A stretch of 64,000 nucleotides of DNA from a virus, in the IMG/VR virus record IMGVR_UViG_3300035698_011327, positions 12,293 to 76,292 of that record. One strand, 5' to 3'. The notes under the pieces were generated by a model. It saw only the letters and a program-made list of their open reading frames with translations, searched no databases and was not told the origin of the DNA. Of this stretch, positions 13,755-21,682 are shown in pieces; the stretch's first letter is position 1; the number at the start of each line of letters is the position of its first letter. A program made the translations under genes and the position numbers.

Positions 13755-13962
13755 TAGACGGTACTTTGAATGCTTACACGCAAATTATAGGTTCGAATCC
13801 TATAGTCCCCACCATTTTAGCAGATTGTGGCCATGGCCACTGGCCAAACGAGTCGCCAAGCGTCTTGGCGGGCCATTTTATGGGGACTTGGCGCAATTGG
13901 TGACGCACTATCATATTGAGATAGCTTCAAAAGCAACGACAGCACTCTTGACTCACCGTCTA
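13755..13962 (+). ncRNA. Y-RNA-like module 1 containing a circularly permuted tRNA-like domain (YrlA-like)
   Basis: Closing stem TAGACGGT/ACCGTCTA; T-arm ATAGG-TTCGAAT-CCTAT and AGTCCCC-A-CCA precede GGGGACT and the D-arm. Confidence 0.7.
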
Positions 13963-13972
13963 TTACATCTTC

Positions 13973-14100
13973 TCCAGCAGTACCACTAAGGCATACATGC
14001 AAAAATAGCTCAATTGGTTGAGCATTAGACTCTTAATCTAACTGTTACGGGTTCAAGTCCCGTTTTTTATACCATACGGCCTTTATAACTCACTGCTGGA
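13973..14100 (+). ncRNA. Y-RNA-like module 2 enclosing tRNA-Lys
   Basis: TCCAGCAGT/ACTGCTGGA closing stem, TAAGGC-ATACATGC, AACTC. Confidence 0.65.
13999..14074 (+). tRNA. tRNA-Lys(CTT), weak acceptor stem, nested in module 2
   Basis: Cloverleaf: GCTC/GAGC, TTAGA-CTCTTAA-TCTAA, ACGGG-TTCAAGT-CCCGT, ACCA end; acceptor GCAAAAA/TTTTTAT has a mismatch. Confidence 0.7.
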
Positions 14101-14107
14101 AATTTTC

Positions 14108-14171
14108 GCACAGAACTTCTTGTCCATACATGCCATGGAACCGCAAACAAAGGACATATGACTCTCTGTGC
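14108..14171 (+). ncRNA. Y-RNA-like module 3 (minimal)
   Basis: GCACAGA-AC..TGTCC-ATACATGC...GGACA..GACTC-TCTGTGC. Confidence 0.65.
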
Positions 14172-14181
14172 TTCGTCTTCT

Positions 14182-14288
14182 AAGGTAGCACTCTTAGAGC
14201 ATACATGCGACCAAAGGACTCATACTCCTGCCAAAAGTGTAGGCACGCAAACCTACAGATTCATCCTGCTCTTAGGACTCGCTGCCTT
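14182..14288 (+). ncRNA. Y-RNA-like module 4
   Basis: AAGGTAGC-AC..TAGAGC-ATACATGC...GCTCTTA-G-GACTC-GCTGCCTT. Confidence 0.65.
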
Positions 14289-14326
14289 TCACATTTTATA
14301 AACCACAATCTATGAAAGGAGCAACT

Positions 14327-15799
14327 ATGACTGAAAGGGAAACGATCAGCAGAAACCAGATTGTCTCTGGCCTCCTACGCATAGGCCATGGCGACTTGGG
14401 TATCTACCAAAGCGACGGTATTGCTGCGGCTAACGAGGATGCCGAATTATTTGGGCACTTCTTGTGCTGGAACAGCAAGAACGGTGAGGTTAGAGACTCT
14501 AAGGTTGCCTTTCCTGTGTTAGCCTTGAGAGGAATAGCGGACGATGAGCTATTTGAAAATGCGGTAGCCAATCTCTGCTTACTTGACCCAAGGAATTTCC
14601 TGAGGGCAGTAACCTACCACAAATCATTACCTGTAAAGGTAACGGATGGTGGAGGGGCCTTTCTTAAAAAGGCCGTCAAGATGTACCTTAAGCATAGGCA
14701 GCATGGAGGCTTACGGAACAGCGCCCTTCTTCAGCACAGAAAATCTATGAAGGCGTTGTATGCTCTTTATCACGAAACCCCTGATCCAGTTTCACAGGCA
14801 GTTCTTTTTGATAAGAAAAAGCCTAAAGGGTCTGTCTTTGAAGCAGTAGCTAACCTTAAAGATATGACACCTACGAAAGCCGCTGGTGAAATCATGACAA
14901 AGAAGATTCCATTCCTTGTCGCTGTCGGTGCTCTTGGTGGGATCAAAGATAAACCGGACGTCATAATCGCTTTGATGGATAGGATGTCTGGTAGCGAGTT
15001 AATCAATAACACGAAATCCCTTAAGAGGATGGGCGTTTTTGAAAACCCAGTGCTTTCTGCCGCTTACGAACAAGCTTTGGAAAAAGTAAAAACGGACAAG
15101 AAAGTGTCAAGCCTTAAGGCTAGCGTTGCCGCAAAACAGGTAGGAGGCAAGGCTAAGAAGAAGATGAAGGCAGTCCAAGAGAAAAAGCTTGTTGACCTTG
15201 GAGGCATTAAAGGCGACTGGCTTGTTCTTGGAGATGCAAGTAGCAGTATGCATGCTTCTGTAGAGATTGCTAAGCAAGTTGCTGCTCTTATTTCTCAGCA
15301 AGCGTTAGGTACGGTTGACCTTATCTTCTTTAATCAAAATGTCATCAAGCATATAGATGCTACTAATAAGACTCTTGAGGAAATTGAGCACGAAGCAAGG
15401 CTTGTTAGGGCAGGCGGGATGACTTCTTGTGGCGCTGGAATCGACTATATCAAGCGTCAAGGAAGGGTTGTTAATGGTATAGCGATTATTACCGATGGTG
15501 GCGAGAATCAATGGCCACATTTTAGCGATGCATATATTGAGTATTCAGACCTGCTTGGTATAAAGCCAGCCGTCTACATGTACCACATTAGTGGTGATCG
15601 GGATACTATGAGTGTGCATTGTAAGCAGCAGCAAGTACAGACCGAGAGGTTTGAGCTTGGTCACGATGTAGACTATTACAGTCTGCCTAATCTTATTAAG
15701 ACTATGAGAGCAAACCGCTATGCTTTGGTAGATGAGATGATGGAGATTCCACTTTTAACCTTAAAGGACGTTTTTAGCGGAAACGGAAAGAGATCATAA
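14327..15799 (+). CDS. Ro60/TROVE-like protein with C-terminal vWA domain
   Basis: Helical N-terminal ~290 aa followed by vWA MIDAS VLGDASSSM, GGMT, IITDGGEN; ~490 aa, matching Ro60 architecture. Confidence 0.65.
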   Translation: MTERETISRNQIVSGLLRIGHGDLGIYQSDGIAAANEDAELFGHFLCWNSKNGEVRDSKVAFPVLALRGIADDELFENAVANLCLLDPRNFLRAVTYHKSLPVKVTDGGGAFLKKAVKMYLKHRQHGGLRNSALLQHRKSMKALYALYHETPDPVSQAVLFDKKKPKGSVFEAVANLKDMTPTKAAGEIMTKKIPFLVAVGALGGIKDKPDVIIALMDRMSGSELINNTKSLKRMGVFENPVLSAAYEQALEKVKTDKKVSSLKASVAAKQVGGKAKKKMKAVQEKKLVDLGGIKGDWLVLGDASSSMHASVEIAKQVAALISQQALGTVDLIFFNQNVIKHIDATNKTLEEIEHEARLVRAGGMTSCGAGIDYIKRQGRVVNGIAIITDGGENQWPHFSDAYIEYSDLLGIKPAVYMYHISGDRDTMSVHCKQQQVQTERFELGHDVDYYSLPNLIKTMRANRYALVDEMMEIPLLTLKDVFSGNGKRS

Positions 15800-18507: not shown

Positions 18508-18648
18508 AGGCGGGAGACATGGTAGGAAATGGTGCGATTATCATAGCAGGCCGCTTTGTAGCACTATCTTCCGGTTCGACTCCGGTGAGAATGCCTCGGT
18601 GGACGCACGATGACCTCGTTGCGAGCAAGTTCGACTCTTGCACCGCCT
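18508..18648 (+). ncRNA. tRNA-like RNA with two T-loops
   Basis: AGGCGG/CCGCCT terminal stem; CCGG-TTCGACT-CCGG and GCAAG-TTCGACT-CTTGC. Confidence 0.45.
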
Positions 18649-18655
18649 AATTAAC

Positions 18656-18731
18656 GGTCTCATAGCTCAGCTGGAAGAGCCTTCGGCTCATAACCGAAAT
18701 GTCCTTGGTTCGAACCCAAGTGAGACCACCA
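18656..18731 (+). tRNA. tRNA with CAT anticodon (elongator Met or Ile2)
   Basis: Full cloverleaf, CT-CAT-AA loop, ACCA end. Confidence 0.9.
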
Positions 18732-18732
18732 T

Positions 18733-18807
18733 AGTCCCATAGCTCAACTGGTAGAGCACATGACTGATAATCGTGGTACTTAAGTTCAATTCTTAATGGG
18801 ACTACCA
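18733..18807 (+). tRNA. tRNA-Ile(GAT)
   Basis: Full cloverleaf, CT-GAT-AA loop, ACCA end. Confidence 0.85.
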
Positions 18808-18826
18808 AACGATAGAAAGGAGAAAG

Positions 18827-19576
18827 ATGGCGAAGAAACTGTATGAACTGTTAGCAACAGAAAGCGAATTGGCAGGGGTATTCAAGAATATTATAACCGA
18901 GACAGGGACTAATTTCTTGAAGAAAGCAGATCGGTACACTGGGTACCATACAGAAGTCAAATATTTTGACGAGAGTGCTCCAAGAGAAGCAGATACTCAC
19001 GTTAAAGTAGACGATACTGTTCCAAGTAAGCTTGCTTATACAGCTGGTCACATTACAGCGTATCTTGACGCCGTATTACAGAAAGAGTCTGCTAACCAAA
19101 AAGCCATGGCTGACGTCGTAATTGACGGCGTGGTTATAGCAACTGATGTACCAGCGACATTCCTTCTTGGGCTTGAAACTAAGTTAAAGAAAGTAAGGGA
19201 CGAAGTGTATGCGAAGATCCCTACATTACAACCCAGTATCCACTGGGATGTAGATACGAACGAGATGGAAGGTGTCTTCAAAAAGAGAGACTCTGATGAG
19301 AAATTCAGAACGAAGAAGATGATGAAGAACCATGTCCGTGCTGCCGCTACCGACAAACATCCTGCTCAAGTCGATGTCTATAATGAGGATGAGAAGATAG
19401 CAAGAATCGTTACGGATACCTGGTGTGGGATGATCTCTTCTGCTGAGAAGTCAAGGCTTTTGAATAAGGTCGATGCTTTAATCAGAGCAGTAAAGACCGC
19501 AAGGCAGAGAGCTAATTCTGTAAAGGTCGATGATGTGAAAATTGGCGAGAAACTTTTTGGTTTTATTAATTCATAA
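18827..19576 (+). CDS. conserved helical phage/bacterial protein (DUF7873-like)
   Basis: VPATFLLGLE..L, IPTL.PS..W, AATDKHPAQV, AVKTARQRAN motifs. Confidence 0.7.
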   Translation: MAKKLYELLATESELAGVFKNIITETGTNFLKKADRYTGYHTEVKYFDESAPREADTHVKVDDTVPSKLAYTAGHITAYLDAVLQKESANQKAMADVVIDGVVIATDVPATFLLGLETKLKKVRDEVYAKIPTLQPSIHWDVDTNEMEGVFKKRDSDEKFRTKKMMKNHVRAAATDKHPAQVDVYNEDEKIARIVTDTWCGMISSAEKSRLLNKVDALIRAVKTARQRANSVKVDDVKIGEKLFGFINS

Positions 19577-19965
19577 GATTGGGATAGCGTCAGCTTCAAT
19601 GCCTTTAAGAGTCAAGGCGCAAAACAAGCTAACCCCTGAAGGTTAGTCTTGAAACAAAGTCCATGGCTCAAGGTATCAAACTCAGATTCAAATTTAGCGT
19701 GAAACCCAATAGCTTCAAGGCAGGGTTCTATAGAATTGTTGAAAGTCGATACACTACACCCTGGGTCGTGGGTTCGAATCCCTCCCCAGCCCCCAAAAAT
19801 TATGGCTGGGTAGCTCAGTGGAAGAGCAAGGGTCTTAATCAAATTGATACGACTTTTCAATATACTTCATAGACGAGCCGTCATAACTTATTACGCAATG
19901 GTTAATATCCATTAAATAAAATGACATAGACAGGGGCGGTGGCTCAAGGAATGCTACCGCCCCAT
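19577..19965 (+). ncRNA. large putative ncRNA with a circularly permuted tRNA-like domain (19758-19833)
   Basis: T-arm and CCCAGCC-CCCA precede GGCTGGG and the D-arm; enclosed by TTGAAAGTCG/CGACTTTTCAA; ends in a GC-rich hairpin at 19933-19963. Confidence 0.6.
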
Positions 19966-19978
19966 TTCAAACAGTTAA

Positions 19979-20057
19979 TGCGGGGTGGCCTAGTCCGGTC
20001 CAAGGCATGTGGCTCATAACCACAAAATCGTGGGTTCGAATCCCACCCCCGCTACCA
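19979..20057 (+). tRNA. tRNA-Met(CAT), initiator-like
   Basis: Cloverleaf; U1:U72 mismatch; GCGGGG acceptor; ACCA end. Confidence 0.85.
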
Positions 20058-20083
20058 AAAACTAACAGAAGGGAGGTGAATAT

Positions 20084-20533
20084 ATGGAAGGCTTTATTAG
20101 CAACGTTATTAGCAATATGCTGCCTATCGCTTTAATCTGTGTAGTTGCGTTGATATTTATCTATGCTGCTTCTGGTATCATAATACATTATGTAAGAAAG
20201 TCAAATACGAAGGACGAAGACAACGAATCCATCAATGTGATTAAGATGGTAAGAGGCATAGCATGTGCTGCAACCTTATTTGTAGGCGTTCTTGCAGGTG
20301 TAGTTTTTGCTGTTTTCTTATCGAATCCTTTTGGTAGCAATAAAGAAGTTATGCCTAGGGCAATCTCTGACGAATCTTTTTCTTCTCCAGCTAAAGCTGA
20401 AATTAAAGTATCAAACAAGATAGCTGTTAGTGAAAAAGCAGTTGAGCTGAAGAAAGATGCTACGGCTAATAACAATGCTGCTATGTCCGAGATCGACAAG
20501 TTGGTCAATGATTCTGCGGTAAAAGCAGAATAA
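20084..20533 (+). CDS. membrane protein (2 TM)
   Basis: Two hydrophobic segments; directly upstream of the SPFH gene. Confidence 0.7.
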   Translation: MEGFISNVISNMLPIALICVVALIFIYAASGIIIHYVRKSNTKDEDNESINVIKMVRGIACAATLFVGVLAGVVFAVFLSNPFGSNKEVMPRAISDESFSSPAKAEIKVSNKIAVSEKAVELKKDATANNNAAMSEIDKLVNDSAVKAE

Positions 20534-21486: not shown

Positions 21487-21528
21487 TTTTTAGTCAGAAG
21501 GGGTGGCATCCGGTGGATGCTCCTCCTT

Positions 21529-21604
21529 GTGGCCGAAGGCAACTTGATGCGCCGATGGGATGTGGCCCCATTGTAAGAGGGTTTGAATCCCTCCGGTCAC
21601 CCCA
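21529..21604 (+). tRNA. tRNA-His(GTG)
   Basis: GTGGCCG/CGGTCAC acceptor, ATGGG-ATGTGGC-CCCAT, C73-CCA. Confidence 0.75.
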
Positions 21605-21607
21605 CTA

Positions 21608-21682
21608 GCTCCGGTCGTCTAACGGTAAGGATATGGGCCTTTCACGCCCACGATCAGAGTTCGATTCTCTGTCGGAGCACCA
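21608..21682 (+). tRNA. tRNA-Glu(TTC)
   Basis: TGGGC-CTTTCAC-GCCCA, T-arm, ACCA end. Confidence 0.9.

What the first reader, a model, noticed from the sequence alone, without database searches (positions are those of the whole stretch)
18827..19965. Second permuted tRNA-like domain inside a ~390-nt ncRNA following a conserved helical protein gene
Seen, in order: ACCCT(19758), GGGTC, T-arm GTGGG-TTCGAAT-CCCTC, CCCAGCC-CCCA, 8-nt loop, GGCTGGG-TA-GCTC-AGTGGAA-GAGC-A-AGGGT(19833). This is a tRNA opened at the anticodon loop and closed at the acceptor, mounted on a long stem (TTGAAAGTCG 19739 / CGACTTTTCAA 19860). Upstream lies a 6-nt periodic tract ATCAAA-CTCAGA-TTCAAA-TTTAGC (19675-19698) and scattered TCAA(G) words; a strong hairpin closes the region. 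It lacks the ATACATGC/GACTC scaffold, so it is a different RNA class. Inference: a second protein+tRNA-mimic RNP in which the 249-aa protein binds the hexamer repeats.
Basis: partly seen in the sequence, partly recalled or inferred. Interest (0 to 1): 0.75.

Follow-up and report, generated by a model that had tools for sequence, protein, structure and literature searches.

The report
Phage tRNA-mimic RNA paired with DUF7873
Right after a phage gene of unknown function (DUF7873) lies a real folded RNA made of six-base repeats and a back-to-front, anticodon-less tRNA look-alike; nearly every relative of the gene has this pair, mostly in phages with no Ro60 gene, so it is probably an undescribed RNA-protein particle related to bacterial Y RNAs.

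Summary
Window 19758-19833 is a circularly permuted tRNA: anticodon-stem 3' strand, variable loop, T arm, 7-bp acceptor stem closed by a loop with an encoded C-CCA, D arm, anticodon-stem 5' strand. It sits on a long rod. Rfam calls it YrlA (Y RNA-like) over the full model, but at 45 bits against a gathering score of 69.

The new point is the context. In 68 of 80 IMG/VR loci, 8 of 8 MAG contigs and 6 of 6 cultured phages examined, a DUF7873 gene is followed within about 100-400 nt, on the same strand, by such a head. The T, acceptor and D helices are 99-100% paired, with many compensatory changes.

Seven phage genomes at least 93% complete carry the module without any Ro60 gene. This window's phage does encode a divergent Ro60 3.9 kb upstream.

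Best reading: a structured 3' UTR or ncRNA, probably cut by RNase P, that forms a particle with DUF7873. Binding and processing are inferred, not shown. No paper or library searched describes it. Earlier notes of this scan report the same module in at least 42 other genomes.

The parts
18827..19576 (+). DUF7873 gene (249 aa), the conserved protein partner candidate
   Evidence: Pfam PF25283 at 229 bits. 891 homologues. AF2 pLDDT 90.9. No clear PDB or BFVD fold match.
19578..19583 (+). P0 helix, 5' strand ATTGGG, starting 1 nt after the stop codon
   Evidence: Pairs with CCCAAT 19705-19710. The same helix, with different sequences, is seen in relatives.
19586..19603 (+). 5' hexamer repeats AGCGTC-AGCTTC-AATGCC inside the P0 loop
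   Evidence: Family-wide lag-6 autocorrelation 0.479 against 0.266 +/- 0.014 in shuffles.
19625..19651 (+). Hairpin inserted in the middle of the P0 loop
   Evidence: RNAfold MFE and centroid structures. Relatives also carry variable mid-loop hairpins.
19675..19698 (+).
   Evidence: Sequence. Lag-6 autocorrelation on the 3' side of the loop is 0.347 against 0.279 +/- 0.018 in shuffles.
19705..19710 (+). P0 helix, 3' strand CCCAAT, 47 nt before the anticodon-like stem
   Evidence: Its position 43-56 nt before the stem is conserved across loci.
19726..19748 (+). Rod, 5' strands: P1 TTCTATAGAA 19726-35 and P2 TTGAAAGTCG 19739-48
   Evidence: Constrained fold. A locus's own flanks pair at -21.7 kcal/mol against -13.3 for flanks taken from other loci.
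19758..19833 (+). Permuted tRNA-like head: AC 3' strand, variable loop, T arm, acceptor 3' strand, C-CCA, loop, acceptor 5' strand, D arm, AC 5' strand
   Evidence: Rfam YrlA 45 bits. R1 85 bits. Covariation of the helices.
19792..19804 (+). Discriminator C, CCA, 8-nt loop, and the predicted RNase P site between 19803 and 19804
   Evidence: NCCA is present in 71 of 75 parsed relatives. Consensus CUAU lies just 5' of the acceptor 5' strand, with U at -3 in at least 90%. Cleavage itself is inferred.
19850..19873 (+). Rod, 3' strands: P2 CGACTTTTCAA 19850-60 (one bulged U) and P1 TTCATAGA 19866-73
19933..19963 (+). 11-bp GC-rich terminal hairpin with no U tract, just before tRNA-Met 19979-20057
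   Evidence: Fold. Not called as an intrinsic terminator.
14312..15799 (+). Context only: divergent Ro60 (HEAT ring plus vWA), 3.9 kb upstream on the same strand
   Evidence: AF2 pLDDT 84.5. Foldseek matches TROVE 9kop at 1.4e-10, phage phiLo Ro60 9l5y, Xenopus Ro 1yvp and D. radiodurans Rsr 2nvo. Pfam TROVE misses it.

Best explanation
The stretch from 19577 to about 19965 is one structured RNA element attached to the DUF7873 gene. It has two parts. The first is a loop of 6-nt repeats closed by helix P0. The second is a rod (P1, P2) that carries a circularly permuted, anticodon-less tRNA fold of the YrlA (bacterial Y RNA-like) kind.

Proposed mechanism: it is transcribed with the DUF7873 mRNA and the flanking tRNA genes. 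The head folds into a true tRNA L-shape and is handled by host tRNA enzymes. RNase P cuts 5' of G19804 inside the acceptor loop, leaving a two-piece, base-paired RNA whose upstream piece ends in ...CCCAGCC-C-CCA, as shown experimentally for Mycobacterium smegmatis YrlA. The DUF7873 protein, probably a homodimer, binds the hexamer repeats and/or the conserved internal loops of the rod. Together they form a Ro60-independent particle that presents a tRNA-like head. Its likely role is in tRNA- or RNA-directed conflict with the host, or in control of its own mRNA.

Shown here: the RNA structure, its covariation, the gene-RNA linkage, and the absence of Ro60 in many carriers. Inferred: transcription, RNase P cleavage, protein binding and function.
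For: - **Anatomy.** All tRNA elements are present in permuted order, including U8, A9, A14, G18G19, the T loop TTCGAAT and a C at the end of the variable loop.
- **Rfam.** YrlA matches over model positions 1-114 at 45 bits, E 6.8e-9 locally and 8.7e-7 over the window.
- **Linkage in IMG/VR.** Model R1 finds a full-length head of at least 54 bits just 3' of the DUF7873 gene in 68 of 80 loci plus the window. About 10 more loci have weaker hits or heads with inserts. One locus ends too early to test.
- **Linkage elsewhere.** 8 of 8 MAG contigs have it. So do 6 of 6 cultured phages, of Rhizobium, Vibrio, Arthrobacter, Klebsiella, Ralstonia and Gordonia, where it lies in unannotated gaps.
- **Covariation.** The T, acceptor and D helices are 99-100% paired. 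19 of 21 pairs show double changes. The covariation score is 0.70 against 0.19 in shuffles and at most 0.20 for slid partners.
- **Rod.** A locus's own flanks pair far better than flanks from other loci.
- **P0.** The helix covaries, for example AGGACTCAG/TTGAGTCCT, GGACTT/AAGTCC and TCTGGTTAA/TTGACCAGA.
- **Hexamers.** Lag-6 autocorrelation is 0.479 against 0.266 +/- 0.014 in shuffles.
- **No other conserved partner.** No other protein gene is conserved next to DUF7873.
- **Independence from Ro60.** Seven genomes at least 93% complete carry the module but neither Pfam TROVE nor the window-type Ro60. The positive control scored 765 bits.
- **Cotranscription.** No sigma-70-like promoter lies in 18600-20150, and P0 starts 1 nt after the stop codon.
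- **RNase P.** There is a 7-bp acceptor stem, NCCA in 71 of 75 relatives, and a conserved CUAU leader. M. smegmatis YrlA with a 7-bp stem is cut by RNase P and receives CCA (PMC4201824).
- **Self-association of DUF7873.** Complex prediction with 3 copies scored 0.54, best of 3 controls 0.00. That mark was reached by 20 of 30 proteins solved as pairs of one chain and by 1 of 23 solved as single chains. The runs agree in at least 0% of contacts, and the partner's pLDDT is at least 72. The interface is symmetric. This supports pairing but does not show it.
Against: - There is no expression, end-mapping or binding data of any kind.
- The DUF7873 fold has no known RNA-binding relative.
- CCA is missing in some distant members: phiRSL1, Klebsiella phage KpLz-2_45 and Gordonia phage Ziko. 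An exposed CCA end is therefore not universal.
- One of the three complex runs scored 0.00.
- The window RNA lacks the rod-loop motifs (AGUAAUUGG / UCAAUGAAAG) that many relatives share.
- In this phage a Ro60 gene lies within 4 kb on the same strand, so Ro60 binding cannot be excluded here.
- The sequences used for the pair counts were picked by a parser that required pairing, so the percentage paired is partly built in. The compensatory changes are not.
Confidence: 0.55

Rival explanations
1. It is an ordinary Ro60-bound Y RNA (YrlA). In this phage the RNA is a second partner of the phage Ro60 at 14312-15799, and its position after DUF7873 is incidental.
For: Rfam YrlA is the only family that matches, and it does so over its full length. 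The phage encodes a Ro60 structural homologue. The RNA lies 3.9 kb downstream on the same strand, inside the 4-kb, same-strand criterion of Chen et al. 2014.
Against: The score of 45 bits is below the gathering score of 69, and relatives score 37-42 bits. The GNCGAAN0-1G / CGAA Ro-binding motif is absent: the window has GUCGAUAC. The RNA travels with DUF7873 and not with Ro60. No Ro60-like gene lies within 6 kb in any of the 80 loci, and seven near-complete carrier genomes have none. Ro60 here has its own array of Y-like modules directly upstream.
Confidence: 0.12
2. It is a purely cis-acting 3' UTR element. The tRNA-like head serves only as an RNase P / tRNA-processing signal and 3'-end protector for the DUF7873 mRNA inside a tRNA-rich operon. 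There is no stable particle with DUF7873.
For: P0 starts at the stop codon and no promoter is predicted. 32 of 75 loci have an ordinary tRNA within 400 nt downstream, and tRNA density is twice as high near the gene. NCCA and the leader consensus fit RNase P recognition.
Against: A processing signal would not need a conserved rod, a P0 helix and a hexamer-repeat loop, nor would it be tied to a single protein family across very different phages. 37 of 81 loci have no tRNA within 2 kb.
Confidence: 0.2
3. The hexamer repeats and helices act at the DNA level, for example as iterons or an origin within the replication module, and not as RNA.
For: Neighbours of DUF7873 in relatives are replication and recombination genes: a RecA/UvsX-like protein, clamp loader, 5'-3' exonuclease, primase-polymerase and ligase. 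Short direct repeats are typical of origins.
Against: The element always lies on the coding strand just 3' of the gene. Its helices tolerate G-U pairs and covary as in RNA. The head keeps the tRNA tertiary-contact nucleotides. A 6-bp period does not match the DNA helical repeat.
Confidence: 0.04
4. It is a true permuted or split tRNA gene, a two-piece tmRNA, or decayed remains of two neighbouring tRNA genes.
For: The gene order (3' half, then CCA, then 5' half) is that of permuted tRNA genes and of two-piece tmRNA. Weak local matches to tmRNA models cover the T arm and acceptor.
Against: There is no anticodon loop, because the anticodon-like stem runs into the rod. ARAGORN calls neither a tRNA nor a tmRNA here. 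The tmRNA models score only 10-13.5 bits. A full D stem is present, unlike tmRNA. Conservation with compensatory changes in more than 80 loci excludes decay. Junctions of ordinary tandem tRNAs score only 30-53 bits and their acceptor strands do not pair.
Confidence: 0.03

Closest known systems
YrlA-class Y RNAs with Ro60/Rsr (Rfam RF02553; Chen et al. 2014, PMC4201824), especially the Mycobacterium smegmatis form
   Same: Both have a permuted tRNA-like domain with T arm, closed acceptor stem and D arm on a stem formed by the two flanks. Both keep the tRNA tertiary-contact nucleotides. The 7-bp acceptor stem matches the M. smegmatis RNA, which RNase P cuts and which receives CCA.
   Different: The score is below the Rfam gathering score. 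The GNCGAA Ro-binding motif is missing. The RNA is linked to DUF7873 and not to Ro60, and most carrier phages tested have no Ro60. It has an extra 5' domain of hexamer repeats closed by a helix. CCA is encoded in the genome.
Phage Ro60 with Y RNA-like RNAs (Thermus phage phiLo Yrl1/Yrl2, PMC12135203; mycobacteriophages)
   Same: Both are phage-encoded structured RNAs that sit next to the gene of their presumed protein partner. This window's phage has such a Ro60 with its own upstream RNA modules.
   Different: Those RNAs lie upstream of Ro60 and carry the CGAA bulge. This one lies downstream of a protein with a different, unmatched fold.
Two-piece (circularly permuted) tmRNA
   Same: The gene order of the tRNA-like domain is the same: T arm, acceptor 3' strand and CCA first, then the acceptor 5' strand. 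Maturation by cutting the joining loop is also expected.
   Different: There is no tag reading frame and no pseudoknots. A full D stem and a 5-bp anticodon-like stem are present. ARAGORN and the tmRNA models do not call it.
TRAP and HutP-type proteins that read (G/U)AG triplets repeated every 5-7 nt (from memory; a lead, not a test)
   Same: A run of short repeats with a fixed period, many of the form NAGNNN, suggests that one protein subunit reads each repeat.
   Different: The repeat unit differs between phages. The DUF7873 fold is unrelated. Only a symmetric dimer is predicted, not a ring. Binding is untested.
tRNA-like structures at RNA 3' ends (plant virus TLS; MALAT1 mascRNA) (from memory)
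   Same: A tRNA fold in a 3' region is recognised by RNase P or the CCA enzyme and defines or protects an RNA end.
   Different: Those are not permuted. Here a cut would leave the mRNA-side piece ending in NCCA, paired to a separate 3' piece.

Membership tests
YrlA (Rfam RF02553; Chen et al. 2014) | tRNA-like T and D stem-loops with conserved tRNA nucleotides, in permuted order | tested here: met
YrlA (Rfam RF02553; Chen et al. 2014) | Acceptor-like stem between the T and D arms, closed by a loop | tested here: met
   7 bp, CCCAGCC/GGCTGGG. The stem is 99% paired, with double changes in all 7 pairs across 36 relatives.
YrlA (Rfam RF02553; Chen et al. 2014) | Score at or above Rfam's gathering threshold (69 bits) | tested here: not met
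   45 bits here. Relatives score 37-42 bits.
YrlA (Rfam RF02553; Chen et al. 2014) | GNCGAAN0-1G (CGAA) presumed Ro60-binding motif near the 5' end | tested here: not met
   The 5' strand reads AAAGUCGAUACAC: GNCGA is followed by U, and there is no closing G. Relatives instead share other rod motifs.
YrlA (Rfam RF02553; Chen et al. 2014) | Encoded within 4 kb of a Ro60 orthologue, on the same strand | tested here: inconclusive
   Met in this window: Ro60-like ORF ends at 15799, the RNA starts at 19742, same strand. Not met in relatives: no Ro60 within 6 kb in 80 loci, and none in 7 near-complete genomes.
YrlA (Rfam RF02553; Chen et al. 2014) | Bound by Ro60/Rsr in vivo | not testable with these tools
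   Needs immunoprecipitation or a gel shift.
DUF7873-linked tRNA-mimic RNA (class seen by this scan; in no paper or library searched) | Lies directly 3' of a DUF7873 gene on the same strand | tested here: met
   The gene ends at 19576, P0 starts at 19578 and the head at 19758. The same layout is seen in 68 of 80 loci, 8 of 8 MAG contigs and 6 of 6 cultured phages.
DUF7873-linked tRNA-mimic RNA (class seen by this scan; in no paper or library searched) | Permuted tRNA head that matches the family covariance model | tested here: met
   R1 scores 85 bits, but the window was one of the 36 sequences used to build R1. The 32 loci not used for building score 54-86 bits.
DUF7873-linked tRNA-mimic RNA (class seen by this scan; in no paper or library searched) | 6-nt periodic repeats in a loop closed by a helix between the stop codon and the rod | tested here: met
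   Hexamers at 19586-19603 and 19675-19698. P0 is 19578-83 with 19705-10.
Two-piece tmRNA | tRNA-like domain plus tag reading frame and pseudoknots; called by ARAGORN or the tmRNA models | tested here: not met
   ARAGORN calls none. beta_tmRNA scores 13.5 bits and tmRNA_permuted 10.3 bits, over the T arm and acceptor only.
Permuted tRNA genes (red-alga type) | The halves rejoin to give an anticodon loop and a working tRNA | tested here: not met
   No anticodon loop can form, because the anticodon-like stem continues into the rod. Processing itself cannot be tested here.

The most novel reading that the evidence does not exclude
DUF7873 and its RNA form a self-contained, Ro60-independent phage particle. 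DUF7873 dimers line up on the hexamer repeats. After RNase P opens its acceptor loop, the tRNA head presents a genuine tRNA elbow and CCA end to host tRNA enzymes or to tRNA-targeting defence nucleases. This would be a new class of phage RNP, working as a tRNA decoy, a sensor-blocker or a translation-linked regulator. It is widespread in tailed phages of Proteobacteria, Actinobacteria and Cyanobacteria.
Probability: 0.35. Interest if true: 0.85.

Novelty: new variant of a known kind. Interest (0 to 1): 0.72.

Why it matters
Y RNAs have been defined by their partner Ro60. Here a YrlA-like tRNA mimic has a different, conserved protein neighbour of unmatched fold, plus an extra repeat domain. It occurs in hundreds of phage contigs and in cultured phages of Vibrio, Klebsiella, Ralstonia, Rhizobium, Gordonia and Arthrobacter, where the element sits unannotated. 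This opens a directly testable case for asking what the tRNA-like domain of Y RNAs is for, outside the Ro60 context. It also gives DUF7873 a first functional lead, and it flags a several-hundred-base gap in many phage annotations as a structured RNA gene.

Tried and rejected
- **Expression.** The look-up of sequencing runs listed no RNA holder, only 7 DNA runs, mostly salt-lake metagenomes. Expression could not be examined and read laying was not used.
- **Closed or failing tools.** Several early database calls failed with a transient error.
- **Single-sequence locus search.** The search for related loci with the single protein found nothing. The alignment A1 was needed.
- **DUF7873 fold and family searches.** Foldseek against PDB and BFVD gave no match at E <= 0.001. 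VIA-align's best hit was 3kdq, a protein of unknown function, at Z 8.7 and rmsd 8.5, which is within the noise range. NCBIfam, PADLOC and PHROGs gave nothing. A PDB sequence search gave nothing.
- **Ro60 by sequence.** Pfam TROVE and a PDB profile search missed the window's Ro60. Only the fold search found it.
- **My own errors.** My first regex parser was faulty and was replaced. The loose parser threshold of 17 gives many background hits, so the counts rest on the covariance model. One IMG/VR pattern scan was off by one base and was wasted.
- **Pattern-only scan.** The corrected scan mostly returns tandem ordinary tRNAs with encoded CCA: 71 of 81 matches.
- **Promoter reading of the TTGACC-like motif before P0's 3' strand.** Rejected, because no consistent -10 spacing exists and the motif pairs with the post-stop strand.
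Not seen here: only 19 nt separate tRNA-Ile from the start codon, and they show no repeats.
- **Literature.** There were no hits for DUF7873. None of the papers on YrlA, Ro60 in phages, or permuted tRNA genes describes this pairing.
Full report
**1. The observation**

It runs: outer stem TTGAAAGTCG, then ACCCT, GGGTC, GTGGG-TTCGAAT-CCCTC, CCCAGCC, C-CCA, an 8-nt loop, GGCTGGG, TA, GCTC-AGTGGAA-GAGC, A, AGGGT, and the other outer-stem strand CGACTTTTCAA. This is a tRNA whose acceptor ends are joined by a loop and whose anticodon loop is replaced by a long stem.

The hexamer tract (19675-19698) and the closing GC hairpin (19933-19963) are also present. ATACATGC occurs only upstream of the Ro60-like gene.

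The 394-nt region folds at z = -4.06 against shuffles. ARAGORN calls eight ordinary tRNAs in the window and nothing here.

**2. What the head is**

With relaxed thresholds, Rfam's only real match is YrlA, the bacterial Y RNA-like family. It matches over the whole model (1-114) at 45 bits, below the gathering score of 69.

Chen et al. 2014 (PMC4201824) define YrlA by four things:
- a GNCGAAN0-1G motif;
- tRNA-like T and D arms with an acceptor-like stem-loop between them;
- a position within 4 kb of Ro60 on the same strand;
- for M. smegmatis, whose stem has 7 bp, cleavage by RNase P and CCA addition.

The window RNA has the tRNA-like domain and a 7-bp stem. It lacks the GNCGAA motif, reading GUCGAUAC instead.

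**3. The Ro60 question**

The 495-aa ORF at 14312-15799 gets only weak vWA and PHROG hits, and no Pfam TROVE hit. Its AlphaFold2 model (pLDDT 84.5) is a helical-repeat ring plus a vWA domain. Foldseek places it with:
- the TROVE domain 9kop (1.4e-10);
- Thermus phage phiLo Ro60;
- Xenopus and human Ro60;
- D. radiodurans Rsr.

So this phage encodes a divergent Ro60, 3.9 kb upstream of the RNA on the same strand. It also has its own Y-like modules directly upstream.

**4. The decisive context**

The 249-aa ORF is Pfam DUF7873 (229 bits) and has 891 homologues.

| Collection | Loci or records examined | With a permuted tRNA head just 3' of the gene, same strand |
|---|---|---|
| IMG/VR loci, 38-61% protein identity | 80 | 74 by hand-written parser (75 of 81 with the window); 68 at 54 bits or more by covariance model R1; about 10 more with weaker hits or large inserts; one locus ends too early |
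| MAG contigs | 8 | 8 |
| Cultured phages (Rhizobium, Vibrio, Arthrobacter, Klebsiella, Ralstonia, Gordonia) | 6 | 6, in gaps of 400-700 nt that carry no annotation or only small hypothetical ORFs |

The window itself scores 85 bits with R1, but it was one of the 36 sequences R1 was built from.

Junctions of ordinary tandem tRNAs give 30-53 bits, which sets the background.

On 36 distinct sequences the T, acceptor and D helices are 99-100% paired. 19 of 21 pairs show changes on both sides. The covariation score is 0.70, against 0.19 for shuffles and at most 0.20 for slid partners. The parser required pairing, so the percentage paired is partly built in. The compensatory changes are not.

No other protein gene is conserved beside DUF7873. 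The neighbours are assorted replication and recombination genes.

Seven carrier genomes rated at least 93% complete have neither Pfam TROVE nor the window-type Ro60. The positive control scored 765 bits. Of the carrier genomes tested for Pfam TROVE, only one (G003) has a TROVE gene. The RNA therefore travels with DUF7873 and not with Ro60.

A pattern-only scan of IMG/VR, blind to the protein, returned six true permuted heads:
- three after DUF7873;
- one 452 nt upstream of a canonical Ro60, that is, classical YrlA;
- one after an unrelated 265-aa coiled-coil ORF;
- one between GIY-YIG genes.

**5. The rest of the element**

Across loci the layout is the same:
- The stop codon is followed within 0-13 nt by the 5' strand of helix P0 (window: ATTGGG 19578-83).
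- Next comes a loop built from 6-nt repeats. The unit differs between phages (AGCGTC, AGACTG, AGTGTC, ACTTCA, ACTTAT and others). A hairpin is often inserted mid-loop (window: 19625-51).
- Then a (G)UAUUG motif and the P0 3' strand, 43-56 nt before the head (window: CCCAAT 19705-10).
- One or two more hexamers follow.
- Then a rod of two helices (P1, P2) with internal loops.
- Then the head.

Lag-6 autocorrelation in the first 36 nt of the loop is 0.479, against 0.266 +/- 0.014 in shuffles, and lag 12 is 0.404. On the 3' side it is 0.347 against 0.279 +/- 0.018.

P0 strands covary, for example AGGACTCAG/TTGAGTCCT, GGACTT/AAGTCC and TTATGGTAG/TTACCATAA.

The rod's own flanks pair at -21.7 kcal/mol, against -13.3 for flanks swapped between loci, and are better in 49 of 53 cases.

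**6. Processing signals**

- 71 of 75 parsed relatives encode N-CCA right after the acceptor 3' strand.
- The bases just 5' of the acceptor 5' strand have the consensus CUAU, with U at -3 in at least 90%.
- The discriminator base and the acceptor sequence vary freely, so no single aminoacylation identity is kept.
- No sigma-70-like promoter or canonical terminator lies between 18600 and 20150.
- Ordinary tRNA genes flank the module here. They lie within 2 kb in 44 of 81 loci.

This fits cotranscription with tRNAs and cutting by RNase P, as shown for M. smegmatis YrlA. It is inference. Some distant members (phiRSL1, KpLz-2_45, Ziko) lack CCA.

**7. The protein**

The AlphaFold2 model of DUF7873 is confident (pLDDT 90.9). 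It has four long helices and a long beta-hairpin. It has no convincing structural relative.

A three-copy complex prediction passed:
- The score was 0.54, with the best of 3 controls at 0.00.
- The mark was reached by 20 of 30 proteins solved as pairs of one chain, and by 1 of 23 solved as single chains.
- The runs agree in at least 0% of contacts, and the partner's pLDDT is at least 72.
- The interface is symmetric.

This supports a homodimer but does not show one. Nothing here tests RNA binding.

**8. Reading**

The most economical account is a Ro60-independent relative of the YrlA system. It is a structured 3' UTR or ncRNA whose tRNA head is processed by host tRNA enzymes, and whose repeats and rod loops are the likely docking sites for DUF7873.

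The rivals, with my odds and their tests, are set out in the Rival explanations section:
- an ordinary Ro60-bound Y RNA;
- a purely cis-acting processing element;
- a DNA-level repeat element;
- a true permuted tRNA or a tmRNA.

**9. Novelty**

The head belongs to a known kind. The protein partner, the hexamer domain and the independence from Ro60 are not in Rfam, in Pfam's text, or in any paper I could search.

After I had reached this reading, the scan's own notes showed that the same DUF7873-plus-RNA module had been reported in at least 42 other genomes, with the same conclusion. Those are unchecked AI notes. They are not independent evidence, but they agree with what I tested here.

Noticed in passing
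window 18508-18650 (+): An unannotated stretch of about 140 nt that looks like a tRNA. It has acceptor-like ends (GGCGGGAG... / ...CACCGCC) and two T-arm-like hairpins (18570-86 and 18625-41). ARAGORN calls nothing, and Rfam finds nothing at E <= 1.
   Followed up: partly
window 21501-21607 (+): A second long tRNA-like stretch (GGGGTGG ... GAGGGTTTGAATCCCTC CGGTCACCCC-A, about 105 nt), directly before tRNA-Glu at 21608. ARAGORN does not call it.
   Followed up: no
window 13755-14288 and 14312-15799: A divergent Ro60 (confirmed here by fold search) is preceded by an array of Y-like modules. The array includes another permuted tRNA mimic (about 13783-13945) and an embedded tRNA-Lys. Model R1 does not match that mimic, so the phage carries two distinct tRNA-mimic RNA systems.
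   Followed up: partly
L096 3303-3387 and 3458-3562 (Arthrobacter phage Racecar): Two permuted tRNA heads lie in tandem after the DUF7873 gene, a twin-headed variant of the element.
   Followed up: no
L179:2053-2850 and head at about 3016; L156 head at about 2008: True permuted tRNA heads also occur without DUF7873 or Ro60. One follows a 265-aa coiled-coil ORF with no Pfam family. One lies between GIY-YIG homing-endonuclease genes.
   Followed up: partly
window 18656-20057: The DUF7873 module is wedged between tRNA-Met and tRNA-Ile (18656-18807) and tRNA-Met (19979-20057). Only 19 nt separate tRNA-Ile from the start codon, and no promoter-like site is found, which suggests one tRNA-mRNA-ncRNA transcript.
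   Followed up: partly
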